The position numbers and the translations under genes were made by a program. Below, piece by piece: positions 3,251 to 13,816 of a DNA stretch of 64,000 bases. The notes below the pieces were generated by a model. The model was not told the origin of the DNA, ran no database searches, and saw only the letters and a program-made list of their open reading frames with translations. The stretch's first letter is position 1. Each line of letters begins with the position of its first letter. The DNA is from a virus: the IMG/VR virus record IMGVR_UViG_3300027969_000047; one strand, given 5' to 3'.

Positions 3251-5561
3251 CTGCAACTTGGTCGATAAATTTTGAGACTAGAACACGGCTCACTTGTTTC
3301 TTTTTAGAAAATTTCATAAAAGCGGTAGCAAGTTTATTGGAAGTAACTTTGCCTTCAACTTCAATAGAATTTTCTTCAACAGCCAATTCAGAGCCACCAG
3401 GAATCAAATAGAAACGGTTATAGCCTTTTGTATATGATTCAATAAACTTTTGCTTACGCATCAGTTTACCCAATTCACTAGCCTTCTCTTGTCTTTGTTG
3501 ATACTCATGTTCTGGAACATAACCATCTTTAAACAAGGTCTCACCTTTTTCATTGGCATAGTATCTGTACACTGCATTTTTAATGCCGCTAGTTTTTGGT
3601 GATGTTATGTAGAAACCAACAACTTTTGAATTGGTAGTCACTTGCAACATTTCCATAAGGCTAGCAGTCATGCCACGATAATCACGATTGTCAACTTTAA
3701 TCTGCATTTTGCTTTTTGGCTCACGCAAAATAACATTGTCACTTGACCTGAAGTTTTTCAAATGAGAACCATCGTGAACATGGTTGCATGAATCAGAATC
3801 ACCATCATGCAAAATAACAATGTTTGAAATTTCAATATTGTTCACTTTGTTGAAATTCTCAACAACAGGTTTCAATGCAACCAAAGCGGCATTCAAAGGA
3901 GTATTCGACAATGATTCACTGTCTGGTATACGAAGACTATTACGATAACCATTCGACTTTGTATATGAATGCATCAACATTACCAGAGCCATCATTGCTT
4001 TGTTAAACTCAGTGGAACTCATGCGAGAATTAATCATCTCACGCAGGAACACTTTGCTAAAATGCAAGTCACCATTATTCTCAGAAAATTGTTTGAATGC
4101 ATAAGTATCCCAAACATTTACTTTATCATTTGGAAAATCTAAATTACGAACACCAACTTCATCACCGAAGCCATATGCAACAAAAGGAATGTTCACTTTG
4201 CGGCAGAAGGAAACTAGAATCAATAACTGTTCAATAGTACCAGCCATGTTATCATGCATGGAGCCAGACTTGTCGAGCAACATCACTAGACCATGAGACT
4301 TGCCTTTTGGCACTCGCATAACCTTGCGGAAGATTTGGTCATCGATTTTGTAATTGTAGATTTTGCTAATATCAATATCACCAGTGTTCGACAATTTAGA
4401 TTTAGAAAACGATTTTGCGGCTTTACGCATTTCGAATTCTTTAGCTAACAAACCAATGTAACGGTCATTCTTAGAACGGAATTCATTCAACAATTTTTGA
4501 CCACTCAGATTAGGATAGAAATCTGAGTAGTGATTCAAAATCTGTTCATTAACTCGCTTGGCAGGTGTAACAATCTTATCCAAGTTTGCAGTTGGAACAT
4601 TTGCATACACATATTGTTTAGATTTTTCATCTAACAGAGAAGATTCATTACGGCGAAACTCTTCATCGGTTTTGCAAACTGGTTGCTTATACGATTCGGC
4701 AGATTCTTTATAACGATTGATGGCTGAACCAACATCGGACTCTTCAGATTCAGAATCATTTTCTTCATCGGAATCATCGAAGTCATAATCACCTTCACCA
4801 GAAGTTTCGGCTTCTGATTTATCTTCACCATCTTCATCACCGTAGTCGGAATCACCTTCATCGGAACCACCGAAGTCATCTTCCATTTCTTCAGAATCAA
4901 AATCATCTTCACTAGATTGTGATTCAGATTTTTCTTCATCGGCTTCTTCAGCCGCTTGTTTTTTTAATTTCTTAGCGGCTTCTTCATTAGCCTTGTTTTG
5001 CTCATCTTGAGAATAGCCGAAGATTTTTGTAGTAACCCGTTCAACATCTTCCCATGTTTCGCATGATTCTACTTCCTTGACCAACAAGGTTTCTTCATCA
5101 TTGAATTTGACAGGCAGAGTGTAACTAGATTTTGTATAGAGGTTCAGACGGTCGATAAAAAACAGACCATCGATTTCGTTTTCTTTAACACCAAAGAAAC
5201 CTTTTTTGAAAAGACCATGGTATGCATTGACAAACGATTTACGAAGACCAGGATAACGGCGTTTGATTTTCTTTTCGATACGGGCATCTTCAATCACATT
5301 CAGGAAGTGTCGAAAGTTTTTACCTTTTTTCGAAGTGGCAGTGTGCCAACCTTTTTCAGGTGTCTCTAATGCGTGACCAACTTCATGGCCCATCAAAAGG
5401 TCGTACAACTCGCCAGTCATTTCTTGCCAGATAGGGCAGGTCAATGTGCGAGATTTTAAATCAAAGGATGCGGTTTTTACAGGCGCATGTACAATTTGAA
5501 TGTCTTCATTAGCCATCAACTTGGCTAGTTGGGACTTAGACTCAACAGAAAAATTTGTCAT
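3243..5561 (-). CDS. CobT-like protein: N-terminal HEXXH metallopeptidase-like domain, acidic linker, C-terminal VWA domain
   Basis: HEVGH and EDARIE, long D/E/S tract, MIDAS DKSGSM, TPL and HDGDS; adjacent to cobS. Confidence 0.85.
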   Translation of the reverse strand: MTNFSVESKSQLAKLMANEDIQIVHAPVKTASFDLKSRTLTCPIWQEMTGELYDLLMGHEVGHALETPEKGWHTATSKKGKNFRHFLNVIEDARIEKKIKRRYPGLRKSFVNAYHGLFKKGFFGVKENEIDGLFFIDRLNLYTKSSYTLPVKFNDEETLLVKEVESCETWEDVERVTTKIFGYSQDEQNKANEEAAKKLKKQAAEEADEEKSESQSSEDDFDSEEMEDDFGGSDEGDSDYGDEDGEDKSEAETSGEGDYDFDDSDEENDSESEESDVGSAINRYKESAESYKQPVCKTDEEFRRNESSLLDEKSKQYVYANVPTANLDKIVTPAKRVNEQILNHYSDFYPNLSGQKLLNEFRSKNDRYIGLLAKEFEMRKAAKSFSKSKLSNTGDIDISKIYNYKIDDQIFRKVMRVPKGKSHGLVMLLDKSGSMHDNMAGTIEQLLILVSFCRKVNIPFVAYGFGDEVGVRNLDFPNDKVNVWDTYAFKQFSENNGDLHFSKVFLREMINSRMSSTEFNKAMMALVMLMHSYTKSNGYRNSLRIPDSESLSNTPLNAALVALKPVVENFNKVNNIEISNIVILHDGDSDSCNHVHDGSHLKNFRSSDNVILREPKSKMQIKVDNRDYRGMTASLMEMLQVTTNSKVVGFYITSPKTSGIKNAVYRYYANEKGETLFKDGYVPEHEYQQRQEKASELGKLMRKQKFIESYTKGYNRFYLIPGGSELAVEENSIEVEGKVTSNKLATAFMKFSKKKQVSRVLVSKFIDQVAVL

Positions 5562-5579
5562 AGTGTATTTATCTCAATC

Positions 5580-5619
5580 AATCAAACTACAGTATAGCAC
5601 ATTCGGCGGTGCTTGTCAA
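5580..5619 (-). promoter_or_regulatory. early promoter (copy B)
   Basis: TTGACA-N17-TATACT-GTAGTTTGATT, same downstream element as copies A and C. Confidence 0.75.
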
Positions 5620-5781
5620 GTAGTCAGAAAGTTGTTGTCTCAACTCAGGTTTCTGAGACAGAAGTTCACAAAGAAAAGTTTGAATACCTTGGCTTTCAAT
5701 CAATTCTACTACATCCATAGTTACAAACGATAGTTGCATTTCATCAACATCTATCAAGTCATTGAGGGAAGTAATCGGCAT
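5587..5781 (-). CDS. hypothetical protein
   Basis: 64-aa ORF with AAGGA SD downstream of promoter copy C. Confidence 0.6.
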   Translation of the reverse strand: MPITSLNDLIDVDEMQLSFVTMDVVELIESQGIQTFLCELLSQKPELRQQLSDYLTSTAECAIL

Positions 5782-5799
5782 ACAGTGTCCTTTTCGATT

Positions 5800-5866
5800 A
5801 ATCAGACTACAGTATACAACAGAACCGAGGTCCTGTCAAGTGTTTTTTTGTTGTATTTTTACAACA
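5800..5866 (-). promoter_or_regulatory. early promoter with upstream palindrome (copy C)
   Basis: TGTTGTA-AAAA-TACAACA, 9 nt, TTGACA-N17-TATACT-GTAGTCTGATT. Confidence 0.8.
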
Positions 5867-7444
5867 TCATGGCTTGTAAAATATGAAAATTGGTTCGTAT
5901 TTCAGCCACATATCACCTTTAATCTTACAGAAGTTTTTCGCTTTTGGCAAGCCAGTCTCTGTATCGATTCGATTACCACCTGGCATTTGTGCGAGTGCCA
6001 TTTTCAACTTACCTTGATACTGCATACCAAGACTTGTCAGAATGTCCATTGAGTCTTGCTCAAGTGGTAACATGTCACCATCGAAGACTGCATCTGCAAT
6101 GTTCCATAAAAGATATCTATCATTCTTCAAGTACTCTACACATGTTTCAAGTGTCTTACGAAGAAAACCTTCTCGCCACAAATCGTATTGAGAGAACTTT
6201 TTGTATGACTGTTCTTCATCTTCAGAGTAAGCCTCTTTCGCAAAGTATGGTGGTGAAGTAAAGATTAAGTCTAGCTTACCTTTGTACTTTTGAAACTTAG
6301 GGTCTTTGCTAATCTCTTCAGAGCCATGTTGAAAGATTTCGTATGTGTGTGTTTTTGGGTACAGTGTTCCTATTGCTCTTGTAGTTTTTGTATTAAAGAA
6401 GTCGGCGAACTCGTGATACTTTGTACGACCGATTGAGGTATCATGGTCTCTATTAGGGTCTGTTCCGATATAATGTATATTACGCTCATCGTCAATAGAC
6501 ATAGCGCCAAGCAAGCGCCCACCCCAACCAGAAGATGGGTCGTAAATATTGATTTGGTCTTGGTCTTTAAATTCATTAGTGTATCGTTCATAGAGATATT
6601 TCGCAGTCAATGGTGGAAAGTTTACAGCATATTGACAGAAAGAAACACGAAAGGCTTTCAATCCAACAGGAAAAAGTTTTTGTCCTTTTTCAAACATTCT
6701 AATTCTAAACATTTTTGCGTTTTTGTATTCGATGTTTGTAATGCAGTGTGCAGGTATTGGAAGAGTATCAATCTCATCACGGGTGAGTGTGATGTATTTG
6801 TTGTTCTTCAACTCTTCATTGTAACCAGTGTATTCTTTATCTTCTTCAGTCGATTCAAGCCAATAGTCATGCGTATCATATCCACGCCATTGAGTCTCAA
6901 AATGTTCAATGAATTCTTTTGCAGATTTTATTTGATTTGTGATTGAGCCAATTTTAATTATTGCACCAATCTGAACTGGTGTAGAGTAATGATAGAATGA
7001 ATCTCTCTTGAAGTGTCTGCTTGCATAAGTGACAAAAGTGTCAAGCAATTCATCTTTAGCAAAGTAATCGTAAATCGATTTACCTTTGTTCACATCTTTG
7101 GTATAGTTGATGCGAGTCTTCATCATTGTTGGGAACCACTGATTAACAGCATTGCCAATTACACTTGTGTTTCGAATCACATCTTCTTCACCTGTCAATA
7201 CATCTTTTACAAGAAATTCATTCACACGAAATGAAGTCATTTTATTGAATTGATTTACAATCTCATGCTCATCATAACCAACTCTAGGCGGTTGACCTTT
7301 CTCATCCCACAACTCAACAACAGTTTTACGAAGGTCGATTACCCATTGGCGAAATTCATCTTTGGTCATCCAAAGAACTTCTTCAAATGTCTTATTGACA
7401 TTCGATTCTATTAATTCTCGATTCTTCTCATAAAAATAATTCAT
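5867..7444 (-). CDS. SAM-dependent amino (N4-C/N6-A) DNA methyltransferase-like protein
   Basis: SAM-binding motif IYDPSSGWGGR, YIGTDPN, catalytic motif IV FTSPPY; likely start ATG 7444 overlapping the upstream stop (ATGA). Confidence 0.85.
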   Translation of the reverse strand: MNYFYEKNRELIESNVNKTFEEVLWMTKDEFRQWVIDLRKTVVELWDEKGQPPRVGYDEHEIVNQFNKMTSFRVNEFLVKDVLTGEEDVIRNTSVIGNAVNQWFPTMMKTRINYTKDVNKGKSIYDYFAKDELLDTFVTYASRHFKRDSFYHYSTPVQIGAIIKIGSITNQIKSAKEFIEHFETQWRGYDTHDYWLESTEEDKEYTGYNEELKNNKYITLTRDEIDTLPIPAHCITNIEYKNAKMFRIRMFEKGQKLFPVGLKAFRVSFCQYAVNFPPLTAKYLYERYTNEFKDQDQINIYDPSSGWGGRLLGAMSIDDERNIHYIGTDPNRDHDTSIGRTKYHEFADFFNTKTTRAIGTLYPKTHTYEIFQHGSEEISKDPKFQKYKGKLDLIFTSPPYFAKEAYSEDEEQSYKKFSQYDLWREGFLRKTLETCVEYLKNDRYLLWNIADAVFDGDMLPLEQDSMDILTSLGMQYQGKLKMALAQMPGGNRIDTETGLPKAKNFCKIKGDMWLKYEPIFIFYKP

Positions 7445-8181
7445 GCAACATTCCATATTAGGGCACCAGCAGTGCCATGTTCTTTAACGAAGGACCACAC
7501 TTTTGCATCATAACACACTTCCGATGGGTATGGGGGCAAATGTTCTAGCTTACATACTTGGTCAAACTTATATGGTGAACGATATGCTGTCGCTCTACCA
7601 ATCTCTCTCTCATTCATAACATGACCAGTCATTACAATGTTTACATTAGCATCTGGCCATGCCATTTGAAGACCTCTTGACAATGTACCTGAACTGGCAA
7701 CAGTCCATACTTCTTTTGGCACAATTGGCAAAGACTTTGCTACTTTAACTATTGATGCCAATACAGTTGGGTGTTCTAAACCTAGAGGAAGAATTCTACG
7801 ATTGATTGTATCTTCTTCATAGTATTTTTTTGCTTTTGACAAAGTGACATTTAGCATACCCATCTTCACCCAATGAATCGTTCCACCTAAGTCAAGAACT
7901 TTTTGTTGTTGCTCAGTTGGAGTTTTTCTTTCAGCCATGAAGAAGGTTGCTTTCTTTCCATATCTATTACAGACTGCTGTAAGTGAGATAGGACCCCAAC
8001 CAACTTTATTCGCACCACCAAAGACCCATTCAGTTGCAGGGTCTGTCTTAACCAAGTAATCAATGAATCTTACTTTGCTACCATACCCTAACAAGTCATC
8101 ACGAAGTACATTGAAACCTTCATGCAATTCAATAACTGGTTTTGGGTTTGGGTCTTGCCAATCTTCAAATGATTCTATCAT
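7441..8181 (-). CDS. PLP-dependent fold-type II enzyme (ACC deaminase/D-cysteine desulfhydrase-like)
   Basis: RDDLLGYGSKVR (PLP lysine), ASSGTLSRGL phosphate loop, YDAK motif. Confidence 0.75.
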   Translation of the reverse strand: MIESFEDWQDPNPKPVIELHEGFNVLRDDLLGYGSKVRFIDYLVKTDPATEWVFGGANKVGWGPISLTAVCNRYGKKATFFMAERKTPTEQQQKVLDLGGTIHWVKMGMLNVTLSKAKKYYEEDTINRRILPLGLEHPTVLASIVKVAKSLPIVPKEVWTVASSGTLSRGLQMAWPDANVNIVMTGHVMNEREIGRATAYRSPYKFDQVCKLEHLPPYPSEVCYDAKVWSFVKEHGTAGALIWNVA

Positions 8182-9256
8182 GTAATTTTTTCTCAGTTTC
8201 TATATCAACAACAAGATGAATTCTTTCTTCATCTCCACCATTCACTGCCATGTGTGGTTTTCTTGTATCAAGAAACCAGCACTCATTTTTTGACATATGA
8301 ATTTTTTGTTCATTACCTTTTGTTCCCCACACAGTAAAAACAACATCATCATTTGTCTTGATTGGGAAATGAAGTCTTGCTACTTTACCAAGTGAACCAC
8401 CAGAGTCAGGGTCTACTTGGTCAGTGTGTCTCTCTAACTCTCCACCGCCAGGTTTCAATCGCATGAATCTCACACGATGAACCTTATCACCAAATTCTTT
8501 TAACAACTCTCTGACTTCAGGAAACACATCATACAATACAGTGTCTTGCAATTCGAAGTTAACATCTTTGTTCTCTTCTTTCCATTTGTCATTCATCTCA
8601 ATTGGCTTAGTGATGAATTCAGGTTCTGGTCTGTATCCACGAAGTGACAATGCACCCCATGATTTGCCTTTGTTGTAGTTGCTGTAATGATTTGTGAACT
8701 CAGGCAACTTCTGCAACTTCTCATAAATTCCTTGAATCAATTCAGGATTCACATCACCAATCTTCTTGATTGATGTATACTCTGCCTTATCGATTACAGG
8801 AAATGGTCTAGCCATTCCTCTGTAGTATATCATATACATCTCACCAAATGTGGTAATCTTTGGACCTACTTGACAGAAACCACAAGTGTGAGCAAGCGCA
8901 TTCATCTCAACATCTTCTGCCCAAACATACATCCAACAATCATCACTGTAGTTGTTGATTCTTTTCTCTAACTCAGCAACATCACCAGTCATGCTACCAA
9001 AAGTAATATCACCTTTTTTCTTGTTTGCAATGACAGTCTTACCATGCATTGTAATTGGCGAAGATGTTTTCGAGATTGATATCTCAATCATTGTATCTTC
9101 TGAAAGAATATGAAGTGAGCCATCATCTAACATACTTGCAATGTTGTTCTTCTTTACTTGAGTAAAAGGTCCGAGAGTGAATGAGTTATACTTCTCAAAC
9201 TTTCCTGCTAGACCTTTGAGGTAGTCTAATTCAAAACCTTTTTGCCATTCTTTCAT
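8165..9256 (-). CDS. 2OG-Fe(II) oxygenase of aspartyl/asparaginyl beta-hydroxylase type with an N-terminal extra (possibly GNAT-like) domain
   Basis: RFMRLKPGG-ERHTD (HxD), RLHFPI, KPHMAVNGGDEERIHLVVD (distal His and Arg). Confidence 0.75.
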   Translation of the reverse strand: MKEWQKGFELDYLKGLAGKFEKYNSFTLGPFTQVKKNNIASMLDDGSLHILSEDTMIEISISKTSSPITMHGKTVIANKKKGDITFGSMTGDVAELEKRINNYSDDCWMYVWAEDVEMNALAHTCGFCQVGPKITTFGEMYMIYYRGMARPFPVIDKAEYTSIKKIGDVNPELIQGIYEKLQKLPEFTNHYSNYNKGKSWGALSLRGYRPEPEFITKPIEMNDKWKEENKDVNFELQDTVLYDVFPEVRELLKEFGDKVHRVRFMRLKPGGGELERHTDQVDPDSGGSLGKVARLHFPIKTNDDVVFTVWGTKGNEQKIHMSKNECWFLDTRKPHMAVNGGDEERIHLVVDIETEKKLHDRII

Positions 9257-9840
9257 TCTACTTGTTCCTGAACTTTAGGTTGAGTCGCTAATCTTCTCTT
9301 AATGTCTACAAGCATTTTCTTTTGTTTCTTTCTAGCCATCTGAACTTTTAGCTGACTAACTTTCTCAACAAAACGAACACCATTCATATGGTCTAATTCA
9401 TGCATGTAACATTGTGCAGTCATGCCTTCAAATCTTTTTTGAATTGTAGTTCCATTGGCATCTTCATATTCTGCTATGATGTATGTAGGCCGAGGAACTT
9501 TCAATGTCATTCCTGGAAAAGAAAGACAACCTTCAGGCTTAATTGTTTCTGGTCCAGTCTCAACGATACGAGGATTGAAACAAACGATATCTGGCATCAT
9601 CACAAAAACACGAAATGGTAATGCACATTGATTTGCAGAGAGACCAAGACCATTGTAATGTTTCAATGTTCTAAGCAATCTTATCGACAAAGACTTTGGA
9701 TCAATCGGTGGATTGACAAAGTTAAAATCAGGCATTCTCATTTTCAGTAATGGAAGATGTTCATCATACACATTGTATGGTTCGTAACTTTCAATTACTG
9801 GTGTTGGTGCTTTTGTGTTAATTACTAGTACTTCACTCAT
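9253..9840 (-). CDS. def: peptide deformylase
   Basis: GLGLSANQ, EGCLS and HELDH motifs. Confidence 0.95.
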   Translation of the reverse strand: MSEVLVINTKAPTPVIESYEPYNVYDEHLPLLKMRMPDFNFVNPPIDPKSLSIRLLRTLKHYNGLGLSANQCALPFRVFVMMPDIVCFNPRIVETGPETIKPEGCLSFPGMTLKVPRPTYIIAEYEDANGTTIQKRFEGMTAQCYMHELDHMNGVRFVEKVSQLKVQMARKKQKKMLVDIKRRLATQPKVQEQVE

Positions 9841-11549
9841 TTTGCTATCCTCGAAAAGTTTTTGACTTTCTCAAACTTAATAATGTTTCTAAATTTATCT
9901 TGCAGTATGTCACCCTTATGTGAGATGACAAACAGATTCACACCCTCAAGAAGATGCAGAATTTTCATCAAATCATCTGTGCCATTTGTATCTAATGATG
10001 AATCGAATATTTCATCAAGTATCAGTAGATTGGTGTTTGCTGAGTTTTTCAACTTAGCAACAGCCCGCCATGTCAACATCAGTGCCATATCGATTCGTTG
10101 TTTCTCACCTTCTGAAAATGATTCATAAGTGAAATCATCACGATGCCTTGACTTGATTGTTTCTTTGAAGTTCTCATCAAGTGTGAAGTTAACAAAGAAG
10201 TCCATCGAAGCCAAATACTTGTTCACCAACTTGTTGATGACTGGAAGATATTGCTTGATGATTTTTGTTTTGATACCAGTGTCTTTCAAAAGAATAGATG
10301 CGGCATCATAGTAAGACTTTTCATCAAGCAACACTCTCAGTCGATTCTTCAAATCACTGAGTGTTTGTTTCAAAGATGCCAATGCTAATTCTTCAGCATC
10401 TGTGGTATCTTTGGGCGACTTCAATTCTGCAATTTTAGCATTCAATCTATCAATCTGCTTGTTTGTTTCAGTGATGGCATTGTTGTTTGTTGCAATTTTT
10501 ATCTGTAACTGCTGAACAATTTTCTGCACATTGTTTATCTCACCCAATGATTTTTGCAAGCCTTGAAGTTTCGAATCTAGTTCTTTGAGTCCATGCTCAC
10601 ATTCCGCACTCTTGGTCGAAAGGTTGGCAATCTCCGTCTCTTTAAACCCGATGGCAATGGTTTGCCTACAGGTTGGACAATCGTCATTATGTTGAAAGAA
10701 ACTGATATCTTTTCTATATTTGGATACTGTGCTTTCAATTTGCGATTCAAGTTTTGTAATTTTCTTGAGTTTATCTTCCACCACAATCTTATCTGCCAAA
10801 ACTGCTTGATGCGTTTCGACTTGTACGGAGAGGTTAGCAACTTCTCCATGTAGGGTTTGTATAGTACTCTGATGGCTCTGTATCTCTTTAGCATATTCAG
10901 TCACCTTGTCTTCATTGTTCTGTTTCATGCTTGCAATAAATTTCTCTTGCATAGCAATCTTTTCATTTGATGATTCGATTAACAACTTACTATCTGAAAG
11001 ACCTTGCCTGTTCTCAGATAACTTTAACCTAACAATACCATTCATAGCAGAGAAAATCTGAATGTCTAGCAAGTCTTCAATGATTGCTCTACGGTCATTT
11101 GCACTCAACTGCATGAAAGGAGTGAACGATGCTGAACCAAGAAGAACAATCTGTGTGAAAGATTTGTAATTCAATTTGAGAATGAATTTCTCAAGAAAGT
11201 CTTGATAGTCTCTTGCGGCGGCATCTTGGTTCAGCAGTTCACCATTCTGATAGATTTCAAACACATTCGGTTTGATACCACGAATAATTTTGAACGACTT
11301 GTTGCCTGTATCGAATTCAACTTCTACAACACATTCTTTAGCATTGATTGAATTCAACAGTTGCGGCTTGTTGATTTTACGAAACGGTTTACCAAACAAA
11401 GCAAAGCACACGCCATCAAGCATTGTGCTTTTACCAGAACCATTTGCACCAACAACTAGTGTGTTTTCAAATTCATCAAAACGAATCTCTGTGAAATGAT
11501 TGCCAGTTGAGATGAAGTTTTTATATCTAAGTTTACGAAAAATTATCAT
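9837..11549 (-). CDS. gp46: recombination endonuclease ATPase subunit (Rad50/SbcC-like)
   Basis: GANGSGKS, CPTC zinc hook, FSEGEK signature, LILDE. Confidence 0.95.
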   Translation of the reverse strand: MIIFRKLRYKNFISTGNHFTEIRFDEFENTLVVGANGSGKSTMLDGVCFALFGKPFRKINKPQLLNSINAKECVVEVEFDTGNKSFKIIRGIKPNVFEIYQNGELLNQDAAARDYQDFLEKFILKLNYKSFTQIVLLGSASFTPFMQLSANDRRAIIEDLLDIQIFSAMNGIVRLKLSENRQGLSDSKLLIESSNEKIAMQEKFIASMKQNNEDKVTEYAKEIQSHQSTIQTLHGEVANLSVQVETHQAVLADKIVVEDKLKKITKLESQIESTVSKYRKDISFFQHNDDCPTCRQTIAIGFKETEIANLSTKSAECEHGLKELDSKLQGLQKSLGEINNVQKIVQQLQIKIATNNNAITETNKQIDRLNAKIAELKSPKDTTDAEELALASLKQTLSDLKNRLRVLLDEKSYYDAASILLKDTGIKTKIIKQYLPVINKLVNKYLASMDFFVNFTLDENFKETIKSRHRDDFTYESFSEGEKQRIDMALMLTWRAVAKLKNSANTNLLILDEIFDSSLDTNGTDDLMKILHLLEGVNLFVISHKGDILQDKFRNIIKFEKVKNFSRIAK

Positions 11550-12625
11550 TCTATATTTTCTGTATTCAAGGCTTCAACATAAAGTTCACGCATGAATGTT
11601 TTCAGTTTCTCATTGTCAACATTGAGTTCTAAATTGTCAATGTATTTGGAAAGAATTGTCATTGTATCTTCTGCTTGGTCTACAATGTCTTTATCATCTT
11701 CAATAATTATCTCAGTGAAATCTTCAACAACAGAGATATCAGCTAGACCTGCTTTGTAAAGATTGTCAATCACAGTATCAAACAGATATGGGTTCTGCTT
11801 ATTAACTACAATAACTTTGACATGTGTACCTTGATATTGTGAGTAGTCATACTTTTTCCAATACTCAAAATCATGTTCACTGTCATCATAGACAATCTTG
11901 AAGAACATCTTATATGGGTTCGGAATGAATTCTATTTGACGAGTCTCTGTATCAAAGATATGAAAACCTCTTGTGTCATTATAGTCAGCCCAAGTAATCT
12001 CATACTGATTACCAAGATAGTGTACAACACCATCTGAAGACTTGTGATGAAAGTGTCCAGACAATACCATATCGAATCTATCAAACACATCTCTGTTCAG
12101 ACCTTCATGGCACACATTGCCACGGTCCATTTCAAAGCCAGAGATTTCAAAATGACCAAAGACTAATTGTACTTTAGCATCTTTCAAAAGAGCCATACTT
12201 CTATCATAGTTCTCTTCACATATCCATGGCATCAATAGAATATCAACACCATCGAATGAAACTACTTTAGGGTCATCATAGATGAATGGCTCATTCACAC
12301 CATCATATGAAGTGCAGAGATTTTGAATTGCGTTTACTTTGTTTGTGTTCTTGAAGTAGGTGTCGTGATTACCAATCAAGATGTGTGTGTCAATGCCTTC
12401 TTCCCAGAATCTACGCATGAAACGATTCTGAAAGTCAGATGCAATATTGTGATTGATAAACTTACGGCGGTCAACAACATCACCCAAATGAATACATGTT
12501 TTGATGTTGTGTTCTTTTAGGTATGGAAAGAATGTGTTTTCCCAAAACTTGAAGAAGAAGTCATTGAAGACATGACTGTCTCCACGGGCACCGAAGTGCG
12601 TATCATTTATGAGTGCAATTTTCAT
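11546..12625 (-). CDS. gp47: recombination endonuclease nuclease subunit (Mre11/SbcD-like)
   Basis: DTHFG, GDVVD, GNHD and GHFH phosphoesterase motifs. Confidence 0.95.
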   Translation of the reverse strand: MKIALINDTHFGARGDSHVFNDFFFKFWENTFFPYLKEHNIKTCIHLGDVVDRRKFINHNIASDFQNRFMRRFWEEGIDTHILIGNHDTYFKNTNKVNAIQNLCTSYDGVNEPFIYDDPKVVSFDGVDILLMPWICEENYDRSMALLKDAKVQLVFGHFEISGFEMDRGNVCHEGLNRDVFDRFDMVLSGHFHHKSSDGVVHYLGNQYEITWADYNDTRGFHIFDTETRQIEFIPNPYKMFFKIVYDDSEHDFEYWKKYDYSQYQGTHVKVIVVNKQNPYLFDTVIDNLYKAGLADISVVEDFTEIIIEDDKDIVDQAEDTMTILSKYIDNLELNVDNEKLKTFMRELYVEALNTENIE

Positions 12626-12633
12626 AGTCTCAC

Positions 12634-12662
12634 ATTATAACAAAAAATGACAAAGGTGTCAA
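12634..12662 (-). promoter_or_regulatory. consensus sigma70 promoter for the gp47 to methyltransferase operon
   Basis: TTGACA-N17-TATAAT with TG extension. Confidence 0.85.
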
Positions 12663-13270
12663 GAACTTTTTTCTGATTCTTTTAAGATTGCCTCTACCTC
12701 TTCTAGCGGTATCGTTTCAATGTCTTCCAATAACATTTCTTCAGGCTCAATGAATTTCTCTATGCCTTTATTGGCTGACTTGTCTTTCTTCTTTTTCTTG
12801 CTTTCTTCAAAGTTCTGAATGAATTCGGAAATGTTATCGTAGAGTATGAATGGTCTGCTTGTACCAGTGTCTTCATCGTACTCATCTTCCATGATTCCAA
12901 ATTGTTCAGTTGCTTTGTACTTCACATAGAGTTGTTTCTTCTCTTTCATAATTCGCCGTAAGAAAGCAAAGTAAATGATTTGAGTGAAGTAAGCAAATGG
13001 GTTCTTAGACTTGTCAGGATCAAAGTTATCAACATACTGAATACAGTTTTCTATACCATCAGAAATCATCTCTTCTCTGAATGAGTATGATATGAAGTTA
13101 GGTTTTCTTGATAGATGTTCTGCAATCTTCAAGAAACATGCACCAATGTAGTTTGACAGTCTAGGTTTTTCTTTATCGGTCTCTTTGGCTTCTTTGACCT
13201 TCAGACGATACTCTATGATTGCCTGTAGAAAGTCGGCATTGTTTACATAGTGTTTTGGGTTTGCGGCCAT
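12659..13270 (-). CDS. gp55: late-transcription sigma factor
   Basis: HYVNN, EMISDGIENC and NPFAYFTQIIYFAFLRRI motifs. Confidence 0.95.
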   Translation of the reverse strand: MAANPKHYVNNADFLQAIIEYRLKVKEAKETDKEKPRLSNYIGACFLKIAEHLSRKPNFISYSFREEMISDGIENCIQYVDNFDPDKSKNPFAYFTQIIYFAFLRRIMKEKKQLYVKYKATEQFGIMEDEYDEDTGTSRPFILYDNISEFIQNFEESKKKKKDKSANKGIEKFIEPEEMLLEDIETIPLEEVEAILKESEKSS

Positions 13271-13302
13271 AATGTTTTCCTGGTAATATTATAAAATTTC
13301 AC

Positions 13303-13332
13303 TTGACAAGATTGTCATCAATGCAGTATACT
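13303..13332 (+). promoter_or_regulatory. plus-strand sigma70-like promoter (antisense to the uvsW operon)
   Basis: TTGACA-N18-TATACT. Confidence 0.5.
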
Positions 13333-13351
13333 AACTGTGTTCCGTTTGAAG

Positions 13352-13816
13352 TTAATGTATTGGATTGTTCTTTAGGACCTCTGATACCATCTCATCATAT
13401 TCTTCAATCTCTTCTTCTCTCAACCTATTTAAAGCATATCTGATTTGTTCATCTTGCAGAATCAAACGATTCTGCTCACTATCAACAATGGTATTGTAGT
13501 GGTCAACGAGTTCTTCTTTTGGGTTCACAACTGTAAGAATATCAGCACAATGTATTTGAGCAATATTCTCTTCAATCAATTCAATTGGTAACCAAGGACT
13601 TATATGCATTGCATTTTGTCCTGTAGGCATTCTCTTAAAGACAAGACGCATTGGGTTTGAAAGCAATGCTGTACCATCAGAAGAGTCTTCAATAAAATCA
13701 GCAAGAACATCTTCTCCCGTAACTAGACGGACTATCTTGACATTTAGATTATCAGGTTTTGAGGTCAATGTTGTAGAATTTGTAATTAAATTTTTCGTCA
13801 TCGTATATTTTAACAC
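13352..13816 (-). CDS. conserved T4-like hypothetical protein (Sm-like fold); start uncertain
   Basis: KIVRLVTGEDVLA...NPM...PWLP pattern, located between uvsW and gp55. Confidence 0.7.
   Translation of the reverse strand: MLKYTMTKNLITNSTTLTSKPDNLNVKIVRLVTGEDVLADFIEDSSDGTALLSNPMRLVFKRMPTGQNAMHISPWLPIELIEENIAQIHCADILTVVNPKEELVDHYNTIVDSEQNRLILQDEQIRYALNRLREEEIEEYDEMVSEVLKNNPIH

What the first reader, a model, noticed from the sequence alone, without database searches (positions are those of the whole stretch)
5867..9256. Candidate novel DNA hypermodification cassette: amino-methyltransferase + PLP enzyme + 2OG-Fe(II) oxygenase
Seen: three overlapping, translationally coupled genes end an operon that starts at a consensus promoter (12634-12662) and includes gp47/gp46. 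They encode an AspH-type oxygenase (HxD...H...R), a fold-II PLP enzyme (GSKVR lysine, SSGT loop) and a large SPPY methyltransferase with a ~270-aa N-terminal extension. Established: PLP-dependent decarboxylases tailor hypermodified thymidines in phages ViI and M6; 2OG-Fe(II) dioxygenases oxidise methylated bases in phage DNA; SPPY is typical of N4-cytosine methyltransferases. No 5-hmU kinase, amino-acid:DNA transferase, TET/JBP or C5-methyltransferase is visible in this window, so the set does not match those known pathways. Inference: a SAM-derived group (methyl or aminocarboxypropyl) is placed on an exocyclic amine, plausibly N4 of the 5' C in CC, and then decarboxylated, hydroxylated or acylated. 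That would explain the GG/CC rule.
Basis: partly seen in the sequence, partly recalled or inferred. Interest (0 to 1): 0.82.

Follow-up and report, generated by a model that had tools for sequence, protein, structure and literature searches.

The report
Three-enzyme phage DNA-modification cassette
A freshwater T4-like phage carries three coupled genes (a SAM-dependent base-amine methyltransferase-type enzyme, a vitamin-B6 enzyme related to the phage enzyme that trims amino acids attached to DNA, and an iron/2-oxoglutarate hydroxylase) that also occur fused into single proteins elsewhere, so they very likely form one unstudied pathway that marks DNA with more than a methyl group.

Summary
Three overlapping minus-strand genes end an operon driven by a perfect sigma-70 promoter: an AspH-type 2OG oxygenase (8165-9256), a compact fold-II PLP enzyme (7441-8181) and a 529-aa SPPY amino-methyltransferase-type protein (5867-7456).

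The linkage is real. All 54 related T4-like contigs keep the PLP and MTase genes where testable. Elsewhere the three domains are fused in single ORFs of 1081 and 1138 aa, or the PLP domain sits inside the MTase fold.

The PLP enzyme is a homologue of phage M6 gp52, the characterised decarboxylase of amino-acid:thymine conjugates in DNA. A sister clade of the oxygenase lies between an amino-acid:DNA transferase and a 5-hmdU kinase in actinophages. No 5-hmU route exists here.

Best reading, about 0.55: a post-replicative DNA hypermodification started by the MTase-type enzyme. The group added may be the aminocarboxypropyl part of SAM (about 0.3), then decarboxylated and hydroxylated.

Neither the chemistry nor the target base is shown. 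The N4-C/CC inference and the GG/CC rule are unsupported. Many MTase relatives lack the partners, so plain methylation with helper enzymes remains a serious rival.

The scan has noted the same trio, and the ParB-MTase-PLP fusion, in other genomes.

The parts
12634..12662 (-). Perfect extended sigma-70-type promoter (TTGACA-N17-TG-TATAAT) that starts the operon. Its -10 hexamer ends 8 nt before the gp47 ATG.
   Evidence: 12 of 12 matches, the best site in 5400-13400.
9253..12625 (-). Operon context, not part of the module: gp47 (SbcD-like, 11546-12625), gp46 (SbcC-like, 9837-11549) and peptide deformylase (9253-9840). Each overlaps the next gene by 4 nt.
   Evidence: phrog_100 5.5e-101, phrog_77 1.7e-175, PF01327 6.9e-28.
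8165..9256 (-). AspH-type 2OG-Fe(II) oxygenase, 363 aa. The cupin domain spans aa ~190-363, with H277-x-D279, H335 and R345. The N-terminal ~190 aa are an unassigned domain.
   Evidence: PF05118 1e-13. Invariant triad in 30 homologues. Best solved relative by sequence is L-proline cis-4-hydroxylase 4p7w, 4e-6. The sister clade lies in ADDT/kinase clusters.
7441..8181 (-). Compact fold-type II PLP enzyme, 246 aa, of the M6 gp52 family (phrog_7093). It has the Schiff-base Lys36 (GSKVR), the phosphate loop S164-G165, and the family motifs PPYPS..YDAKVW and IWNVA.
   Evidence: phrog_7093 3.3e-29 end to end. hhalign against M6 gp52: probability 98.9, E 2.8e-17. AF2 pLDDT 96.5. 1j0a: Z 23.6, rmsd 2.5 A, 244 of 246 aa aligned.
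5867..6645 (-). Catalytic class-I amino-methyltransferase-type domain of the 529-aa protein (aa ~271-529). It carries motif I IYDPSSGWGGR, motif II D333, and motif IV DLIFTSPPYFAKEAYSED.
   Evidence: PF01555 27.4 bits against a cut-off of 26.7. AF2 pLDDT 85.8. Trm11, TrmN and Trm14: Z 15. Same family signature as the PLP-partner MTases.
6646..7456 (-). N-terminal ~270-aa extension of the MTase-type protein. It is folded and specific to this lineage. It may be a target-recognition domain (inference). The true start is probably Met5 (7444), which forms an ATGA overlap with the PLP stop.
5811..5839 (-). Next sigma-70-type promoter (11 of 12 matches), just downstream of the MTase stop. It marks the end of the operon.

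Best explanation
The three genes encode one early-expressed pathway that chemically modifies the phage's own DNA after replication, and the mark is larger than a methyl group.

Proposed order of steps (inferred):
1. The MTase-type enzyme binds SAM and a flipped-out base, and alkylates an exocyclic amino group (A-N6, C-N4 or G-N2; which one is unknown). The most coherent version has it transfer the 3-amino-3-carboxypropyl (acp) part of SAM, releasing MTA.
2. The M6-gp52-like PLP enzyme forms a Schiff base with the free alpha-amine of the DNA-bound amino-acid side chain and decarboxylates it to an aminopropyl group.
3. The AspH-type oxygenase hydroxylates the side chain. This step is optional, because one phage clade and many other elements have only the MTase plus PLP pair.

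Shown: gene coupling, domain fusions, catalytic residues, and homology to a DNA-acting decarboxylase.
Inferred: DNA as the substrate here, the acp transfer, and the order of steps.
For: 1. Linkage.
- 54 related T4-like contigs keep gp46-(PDF-AspH)-PLP-MTase. Every locus with enough downstream DNA has the MTase.
- P0121 (1081 aa, read through on DNA in L058) and P0138 (1138 aa) hold MTase, AspH and PLP domains in one ORF.
- In L065 an MTase gene overlaps an AspH-YunG-PLP fusion.
- In at least 9 proteins the whole PLP domain is inserted at the same position inside the MTase fold.
- MTase and PLP are adjacent or fused in 13 of 16 contexts outside the T4-like lineage. The same holds in the cultured phages ZS04, R6L, Mae-JY30, Pam4 and AlanGrant.

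2. The PLP enzyme is homologous to M6 gp52. That enzyme was shown in vitro to decarboxylate C-alpha-glycinyl-thymidine in DNA, and it needs a free primary amine (PMC8989533).

3. The oxygenase's sister clade lies between ADDT (PF18724) and Ploopntkinase3, after ParB and before terminase, in LilMcDreamy, a Kribbella prophage and 68-kb phage contigs. Its nearest solved relatives hydroxylate amino acids.

4. Neither the window nor a complete relative has any other way to put an amino acid on DNA: no ADDT, no 5-hmdU kinase, no TS-family hydroxymethylase, and only one amino-MTase.

5. Precedents from my own knowledge.
- Microcin C: MccD, an MTase-like enzyme, transfers acp from SAM, and the PLP domain of MccE decarboxylates it to aminopropyl.
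- Wybutosine: TYW2, a Trm5 homologue, transfers acp, and the 2OG oxygenase TYW5 hydroxylates that side chain.

6. One lead: in Croceibacter phage P2559S the same MTase family overlaps an AdoMet decarboxylase gene.
Against: - Many members of the same MTase family, about 50% identical and with the same F[ST]CPPY.DLEVYSD signature, stand without a PLP or AspH partner in cultured phages (phiFL3A, B054, phiCTP1, HCTV-2). They may simply methylate, so the partnered ones may too.
- M6 gp52 works on C5-linked adducts of thymine made by a quite different route.
- Homology at 26% identity does not fix the reaction. Fold-II enzymes usually eliminate or replace rather than decarboxylate.
- One PLP-family member lies alone in an ordinary bacterial chromosome neighbourhood.
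- The window strongly avoids ACGT, CGCG, GATC and GGCC. This argues against a genome-wide protective modification.
- In most relatives unrelated genes (dCMP deaminase and others) sit between the PLP and MTase genes.
- The closest structural matches of the MTase domain are RNA and protein MTases.
- No chemical datum exists.
Confidence: 0.55

Rival explanations
1. Plain DNA methylation with helpers. The MTase makes ordinary m6A or m4C at a motif. The PLP enzyme and the oxygenase act on small molecules that support it, for example by destroying the product inhibitor SAH or another amino acid. They do not act on DNA-bound groups.
For: - PALP-less family members share the same core and signature.
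- A PLP-family member stands alone in a bacterial chromosome.
- The PLP insertion point is the loop before beta3, which by fold topology does not have to face the SAM pocket (inference).
- An earlier check in this scan priced the bold reading low for the same reason.
Against: - It does not explain why two enzyme families otherwise tied to amino-acid adducts on DNA (gp52-type, and the ADDT-cluster oxygenase) are both fused to the MTase.
- No PLP-dependent SAH lyase of this fold is known to me.
Confidence: 0.25
2. The target is RNA or protein of the translation apparatus, not DNA. This would be a tRNA or rRNA base or a Gln amide, modified by a Trm11/PrmC-like enzyme and tailored by the other two, and it would fit the adjacent peptide deformylase.
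For: - The best structural matches are Trm11, TrmN, Trm14, METTL5, PrmC and RsmC.
- PDF lies in the same operon.
- acp and hydroxylated acp groups are known only in RNA (my own knowledge).
Against: - Family members are fused to ParB domains and sit beside terminase genes.
- The PLP homologue M6 gp52 and the oxygenase's sister clade belong to DNA pathways.
- PDF is absent from all contexts outside the T4-like lineage.
Confidence: 0.12
3. The genes are unrelated auxiliary metabolic genes that merely share a hyperplastic region downstream of gp46.
For: The region takes up varied inserts in relatives: dCMP deaminase, small 2OG oxygenases and heptose-pathway genes. 2OG oxygenases and PDF are common phage auxiliary genes (my own knowledge).
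Against: Single-ORF fusions of all three domains and nested domain insertions occur in unrelated elements.
Confidence: 0.04

Closest known systems
Pseudomonas phage M6 gp52 and Salmonella phage ViI gp226: PLP-dependent decarboxylases of amino-acid:thymine conjugates in DNA (Lee et al. 2021, PMC8989533)
   Same: The window's PLP enzyme is in the same PHROG as gp52 (phrog_7093). It has the same compact fold-II enzyme of about 250-280 aa, Lys36 at the same position, and shared C-terminal PFP..YD.KAW..FWN motifs. 1j0a is the best template for both.
   Different: gp52 and gp226 work downstream of dUMP hydroxymethylase, 5-hmdU kinase and an amino-acid:DNA transferase. None of these is present here. 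Here the partner is an amino-MTase-type enzyme. Identity to gp52 is only about 26%.
ParB-associated phage DNA amino-methyltransferases (for example Enterococcus phage phiFL3A gp36, Listeria phage B054 gp77)
   Same: Same order of motif I then motif IV, and the same extended signature F[ST][SC]PPY..[LK]E.YS[DE]D.
   Different: The window's protein has no ParB domain. It has instead a unique ~270-aa N-terminal domain, and it is tied to PLP and oxygenase partners. E-values to the family profile are only about 1e-6.
Microcin C aminopropylation (MccD plus the MccE N-terminal domain) and wybutosine tailoring (TYW2 plus TYW5); from my own knowledge
   Same: An MTase-fold enzyme that transfers the acp part of SAM, followed by PLP decarboxylation (MccE) or by 2OG-dependent hydroxylation of the acp chain (TYW5). 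This is the same logic as the proposed pathway.
   Different: The substrates are a peptidyl-nucleotide and tRNA, not DNA. MccE is a fold-III PLP enzyme and TYW5 is a JmjC protein. No sequence relationship was tested here.
Thymidine hypermodification clusters with ADDT and 5-HMUDK (M6, ViI, PaMx11; LilMcDreamy-type actinophage clusters)
   Same: They contain homologues of two of the three enzymes: the gp52-type PLP enzyme, and in actinophages the AspH-type oxygenase.
   Different: They start from 5-hmdU and free amino acids. The cassette here lacks all of those starting enzymes.
ACC deaminase / D-cysteine desulfhydrase subfamily of fold-II PLP enzymes (1j0a, 4d8w)
   Same: Best structural match: Z 23.6, 244 of 246 residues aligned. 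It shares the GG(N/T/S)K.R lysine motif.
   Different: The window's enzyme is about 80 residues shorter, 12-15% identical, and carries its own C-terminal motifs. Nothing points to ACC or D-Cys as a substrate.

Membership tests
Fold-type II PLP enzymes (PF00291 superfamily) | Schiff-base lysine in the N-terminal motif, and a Gly-rich phosphate-binding loop | tested here: met
   K36 is invariant and S164/G165 are invariant or nearly so in 66 homologues. The loop aligns with the GTGGT loop of O-acetylserine sulfhydrylase.
Fold-type II PLP enzymes (PF00291 superfamily) | Two-domain alpha/beta fold superposable on solved members | tested here: met
   AF2 pLDDT 96.5. 1j0a: Z 23.6, rmsd 2.5 A, 244 aa aligned.
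Fold-type II PLP enzymes (PF00291 superfamily) | Pfam gathering score (35 bits) | tested here: not met
   17.1 bits, E 0.0036 for the window's protein. Relatives reach 40-46 bits. The family profile hits solved members at 5e-5.
M6 gp52-type DNA-adduct decarboxylases (phrog_7093) | Full-length profile match and shared family-specific motifs with gp52 | tested here: met
   phrog_7093 3.3e-29 over aa 20-246. gp52 itself scores 2e-159. hhalign probability 98.9, E 2.8e-17, 221 columns.
M6 gp52-type DNA-adduct decarboxylases (phrog_7093) | Co-occurrence with an amino-acid:DNA transferase and a 5-hmdU DNA kinase | tested here: not met
   None in the window. None in the complete relative, with positive controls ringing.
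M6 gp52-type DNA-adduct decarboxylases (phrog_7093) | Decarboxylation of an alpha-amino acid attached to a base in polymeric DNA | not testable with these tools
   Needs enzyme assay and LC-MS.
Class-I SAM-dependent amino-methyltransferases with a (D/N/S)PP(Y/F) motif | Motif I (DPxxGxG), acidic motif II, catalytic motif IV and a Rossmann-like fold | tested here: met
   D306-P-S-S-G-W-G-G, D333 and S401-P-P-Y404 are invariant. Structural matches reach Z 14-15.5 to Trm11, TrmN, METTL5 and PrmC. PF01555 scores 27.4 bits against a cut-off of 26.7.
N4-cytosine DNA methyltransferases | An SPPY/SPPF motif together with a beta-class layout and a demonstrated C-N4 target | tested here: inconclusive
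   Only the tetrapeptide fits. The motif order is I then IV, not the beta-class order. Partner MTases have SCPPY or TCPPY. The target base cannot be read from sequence.
ParB-associated phage DNA MTase family (PLP-partner family) | Extended signature F[ST][SC]PPY..[LK]E.YS[DE]D after motif I, with ParB fused or adjacent | tested here: inconclusive
   The signature is present as FTSPPYFAKEAYSED. The family profile hits only the motif-IV region, E 1.5e-6. There is no ParB domain in the window's protein.
AspH-type 2OG-Fe(II) oxygenases (PF05118) | HxD...H iron triad, a 2OG-binding Arg, and the Pfam cut-off | tested here: met
   H277, D279, H335 and R345 are invariant. 51.9 bits against a cut-off of 22.6.
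Known thymidine hypermodification pathways (M6, ViI, PaMx11 type) | A source of 5-hmdU: dUMP hydroxymethylase of the TS family, or TET/JBP | tested here: not met
   No PF00303 in 5 related records including the complete one, with the control ringing. No Tet_JBP hit, but that control was silent. No TS-like hit in the window.

The most novel reading that the evidence does not exclude
The MTase-type enzyme does not methylate. It transfers the 3-amino-3-carboxypropyl group of SAM onto an exocyclic amine of a DNA base. The gp52-like PLP enzyme then decarboxylates the adduct on the DNA to an aminopropyl group, and the AspH-type oxygenase hydroxylates it. That would be a SAM-derived, positively charged amino-alkyl DNA hypermodification made without any 5-hmU intermediate. 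It would be widespread in freshwater T4-like phages, siphophages, actinophages and mobile islands.
Probability: 0.3. Interest if true: 0.9.

Novelty: new variant of a known kind. Interest (0 to 1): 0.72.

Why it matters
All enzymatically defined phage DNA hypermodifications with amino-acid-derived side chains start from 5-hydroxymethyl-pyrimidines.

A pathway that starts from an amino-methyltransferase-type enzyme would be a second, independent entry into DNA hypermodification. It would act on purine or cytosine amino groups and use SAM as more than a methyl donor.

The module is common. There are about 1000 clusters (at 50% identity) of the PLP family and more than 2700 full-length relatives of the 529-aa enzyme. 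It occurs in abundant freshwater phages. It also occurs in cultured phages (AlanGrant, R6L, ZS04, Pam4, Mae-JY30), so the question can be tested directly.

The product would matter for restriction evasion, for sequencing artefacts in viromes, and as a possible tool for site-directed DNA alkylation.

Tried and rejected
- Complex prediction of the 529-aa protein with the PLP enzyme gave no answer (score 0.00). It counts neither for nor against binding.
- The N-terminal domains remain unassigned. Pfam at E up to 10 gave only chance-level hits (Phage_T7_Gp13 0.04-0.1). Atlas feature searches scored 0.76-0.82, which is below the useful range.
- The Atlas fold search of the 529-aa model returned only its own viral family.
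- Megablast of the region against cultured phages found nothing.
- The window's own genome is not held, so relatives were used instead.
- Alignment-based search for related loci failed twice for lack of conserved stretches. P0121 found nothing in genome contigs. LilMcDreamy gp4 found only itself in viral contigs.
- Eight full-text paper searches and the R6L paper gave no description of the module. The YunG search returned only author names.
- The MTase plus AdoMet-decarboxylase pairing was found only in the P2559S lineage and not in the T4-like relatives, so it is a lead, not support.
- Short contigs from four freshwater metatranscriptome runs touch all three genes. Such libraries can hold DNA, so this is no proof of transcription.
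- I considered that the PLP insertion point shows a shared active site with the SAM pocket. I rejected this, because the loop lies before beta3, on the far side of the sheet.


Full report
**What is there**

The window comes from a T4-like myovirus of fresh water. Its gp46 is about 48% identical to those of Synechococcus phages and Methylophilales phage Melnitz. The stretch is held by freshwater and lake metagenomes of at least ten studies.

On the minus strand a perfect extended sigma-70 promoter at 12662-12634 is followed by six genes:
- gp47
- gp46
- a peptide deformylase
- a 363-aa AspH-type oxygenase (8165-9256)
- a 246-aa PLP enzyme (7441-8181)
- a 529-aa amino-methyltransferase-type protein (5867-7456)

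All the junctions overlap. A new promoter follows the last stop.

**Are the three genes linked?**

Within the lineage, 54 IMG/VR contigs (48-98% identity) keep the arrangement, and every locus with enough downstream DNA has the MTase. One clade (L050-L053) has gp46-PLP-MTase without the oxygenase and PDF. So MTase plus PLP is the core and the oxygenase is an add-on.

In most relatives 0.7-3.3 kb of unrelated genes separate PLP and MTase. These include a dCMP deaminase-like gene, a small 2OG oxygenase-like gene and cytidylyltransferase-like genes, as read from their sequences. Synteny alone would therefore be weak evidence.

The decisive evidence comes from outside the lineage. An exhaustive search found about 1026 clusters of the PLP family, many of them longer proteins.
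- P0121 (1081 aa) and P0138 (1138 aa) contain MTase, AspH and PLP domains in one ORF. P0121 reads through on its DNA, in a bacterial island with serine recombinases.
- P0128 is an AspH-YunG-PLP fusion whose gene overlaps an upstream MTase gene.
- In ZS04 gp7, P0197, P0210, P0190, P0231, P0166, P0173, P0238, P0256 and Pam4 gp70 the complete PLP domain is inserted at one and the same point of the MTase fold, about profile position 160, before beta3.
- Counting contexts outside the T4-like lineage, 13 of 16 show MTase and PLP adjacent or fused.
- The exceptions are a bacterial chromosome locus and one Patescibacteria contig.

**What are the parts?**

*PLP enzyme.* The AF2 model has pLDDT 96.5 and superposes 244 of 246 residues on the ACC-deaminase homologue 1j0a (Z 23.6). 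More telling, it matches phrog_7093 end to end at 3.3e-29. The type member of that PHROG is Pseudomonas phage M6 gp52, which scores 2e-159.
- The family profile aligns to gp52 with probability 98.9% and E 2.8e-17 over 221 columns. The alignment includes the odd C-terminal motifs and a Lys at position 36 in both.
- Lee et al. 2021 showed that purified gp52 decarboxylates C-alpha-glycinyl-thymidine in DNA, and only when a free primary amine is available (PMC8989533).
I tested it here.

*Oxygenase.* The cupin domain has the full triad. Its nearest solved relatives by sequence are amino-acid hydroxylases (4p7w, 4e-6). A sister clade of 234 or more proteins, alignable over residues about 108-362, lies between an amino-acid:DNA transferase (PF18724) and a Ploopntkinase3 gene. 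That position is after ParB and before terminase, and it is seen in Mycobacterium phage LilMcDreamy, a Kribbella prophage and 68-kb phage contigs. This is the layout of a thymidine hypermodification cluster.

*MTase.* The AF2 model (pLDDT 85.8) is a class-I fold with motif I before motif IV. The best structural matches are Trm11, TrmN, Trm14, METTL5, PrmC and lmo1582 (Z 14-15.5).
- Its catalytic half is homologous to the MTase parts of the fusions (E 1e-36 to 1e-42).
- It shares an extended signature, F[ST][SC]PPY..[LK]E.YS[DE]D, with all PLP-partner MTases.
- That family is the ParB-associated phage DNA MTase family, usually encoded beside the terminase.
- The N-terminal 270 aa are folded but unmatched.

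**What is missing**

The window has no relative of M6 or LilMcDreamy ADDT, kinase, rSAM or TS-like proteins. The complete 150-kb relative has:
- no ADDT, while M6 and LilMcDreamy rang as positive controls;
- no Ploopntkinase3;
- no TS-family gene;
- no AdoMet decarboxylase;
- a single amino-MTase hit, which is the orthologue of the 529-aa protein.

**Mechanism**

Two of the three enzymes belong to families otherwise tied to amino-acid side chains hanging on DNA, and both are fused to the MTase. Yet no known way to attach an amino acid is present. The only amino acid the MTase-type enzyme handles is SAM.

The most coherent pathway has three steps:
1. Transfer of the acp part of SAM to an exocyclic base amine.
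2. PLP decarboxylation to aminopropyl.
3. Optional hydroxylation.

Precedents from my own knowledge are MccD/MccE in microcin C and TYW2/TYW5 in wybutosine. A single-lineage lead fits this: in Croceibacter phage P2559S the same MTase family overlaps an AdoMet decarboxylase gene, with an ASCH gene upstream. That would give the same aminopropyl product by decarboxylating before transfer.

I rate "one DNA-hypermodification pathway" at about 0.55 and the specific acp chemistry at about 0.3.

**Against, and rivals**

- Family members about 50% identical, with the same signature, have no partner. The parsimonious view is that all of them methylate and that the PLP enzyme is a helper. This rival gets 0.25.
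- The RNA and protein MTase structural neighbours, and the adjacent PDF, keep an RNA or protein target alive (0.12).
- The window lacks ACGT and CGCG entirely (about 80 and 52 expected per strand). It is also depleted of GATC (25 against 223), GGCC and AGCT. A genome-wide protective modification is therefore unlikely. A motif-specific one is not excluded.
- GG/CC odds are 0.85 and GGG/CCC 0.55. Nothing ties these to the cassette, and SPPY does not identify cytosine-N4.

**Novelty**

Eight full-text searches found no description of the module. The R6L paper calls its 830-aa ORF1 simply a CcrM-like methylase. NCBIfam has no model for either family.

Notes from this scan show the same trio in other T4-like genomes, and the ParB-MTase-PLP fusion in several other phages. 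What this window adds is the oxygenase as a third, independently DNA-adduct-linked partner, and the triple fusions.

Noticed in passing
window 1-64000: Extreme avoidance of short palindromes. ACGT and CGCG are absent, against about 80 and 52 expected per strand. GATC is 25 against 223, GGCC 31 against 89, AGCT 63 against 158 and CATG 170 against 343. CTGCAG is 0 against 15. This is typical restriction-site avoidance and argues that the DNA is not globally protected.
   Followed up: partly
window 12623-12662: The -10 hexamer of the perfect promoter ends only 8 nt before the gp47 ATG, so the gp47 mRNA would be leaderless or nearly so.
   Followed up: no
L087 1174-3626 (Croceibacter phage P2559S): An MTase of the same family overlaps a bona fide AdoMet decarboxylase gene (PF02675, 2e-19) and follows an ASCH-domain gene. 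The pairing is conserved in four related contigs only. It may be an alternative route to aminopropyl transfer.
   Followed up: partly
L003 1-3759; L077 3382-7655; L078 4158-7694: Actinophage cassette ParB / 316-345-aa protein (weak Tet_JBP) / ADDT / AspH-type oxygenase / Ploopntkinase3, just before the terminase. The oxygenase is an undescribed member of thymidine-hypermodification clusters. LilMcDreamy gp2 is annotated as queuine tRNA-ribosyltransferase but gives only a weak Tet_JBP hit.
   Followed up: partly
L081 1-2275 (Mycobacterium phage AlanGrant): gp1 (MTase family) overlaps gp2, a PLP enzyme of phrog_3650 annotated as 'nucleoside deaminase'. The pair sits at the same left-end genome position where the related LilMcDreamy has the ADDT/oxygenase cassette. 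These look like alternative DNA-modification cassettes in one slot.
   Followed up: partly
L010 7179-8790; L044 8735-11345; L047 8735-11072 and others: In relatives the gap between the PLP and MTase genes holds variable inserts: a conserved 81-aa protein, a dCMP deaminase-like gene, a ~175-aa 2OG-oxygenase-like gene, and cytidylyltransferase/kinase-like genes. These were read from the sequences and not scanned against Pfam.
   Followed up: no
P0269 (2261 aa, metagenomic): A giant protein with an N-terminal DEAD/Helicase_C domain, a PCIF1-like MTase region, a second MTase of this family and a C-terminal PLP domain. The layout recalls injected anti-restriction helicase-methylases (resemblance from memory, not tested).
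   Followed up: no
L061 6001-6705: One PLP-family member (P0163) lies alone in an ordinary bacterial chromosome neighbourhood (gatCAB, MFS transporter, fatty-acid desaturase) with no MTase nearby.
   Followed up: no
9 of 34 fused PLP proteins (e.g. P0128 406-486, P0154 185-259): A YunG domain (PF24585, function unknown) recurs between or before the oxygenase and PLP domains. It may be a fourth component.
   Followed up: no
window 9253-9840: A peptide deformylase is encoded between gp46 and the cassette and is translationally coupled to both. It is conserved in most T4-like relatives but absent from all other contexts of the module.
   Followed up: partly
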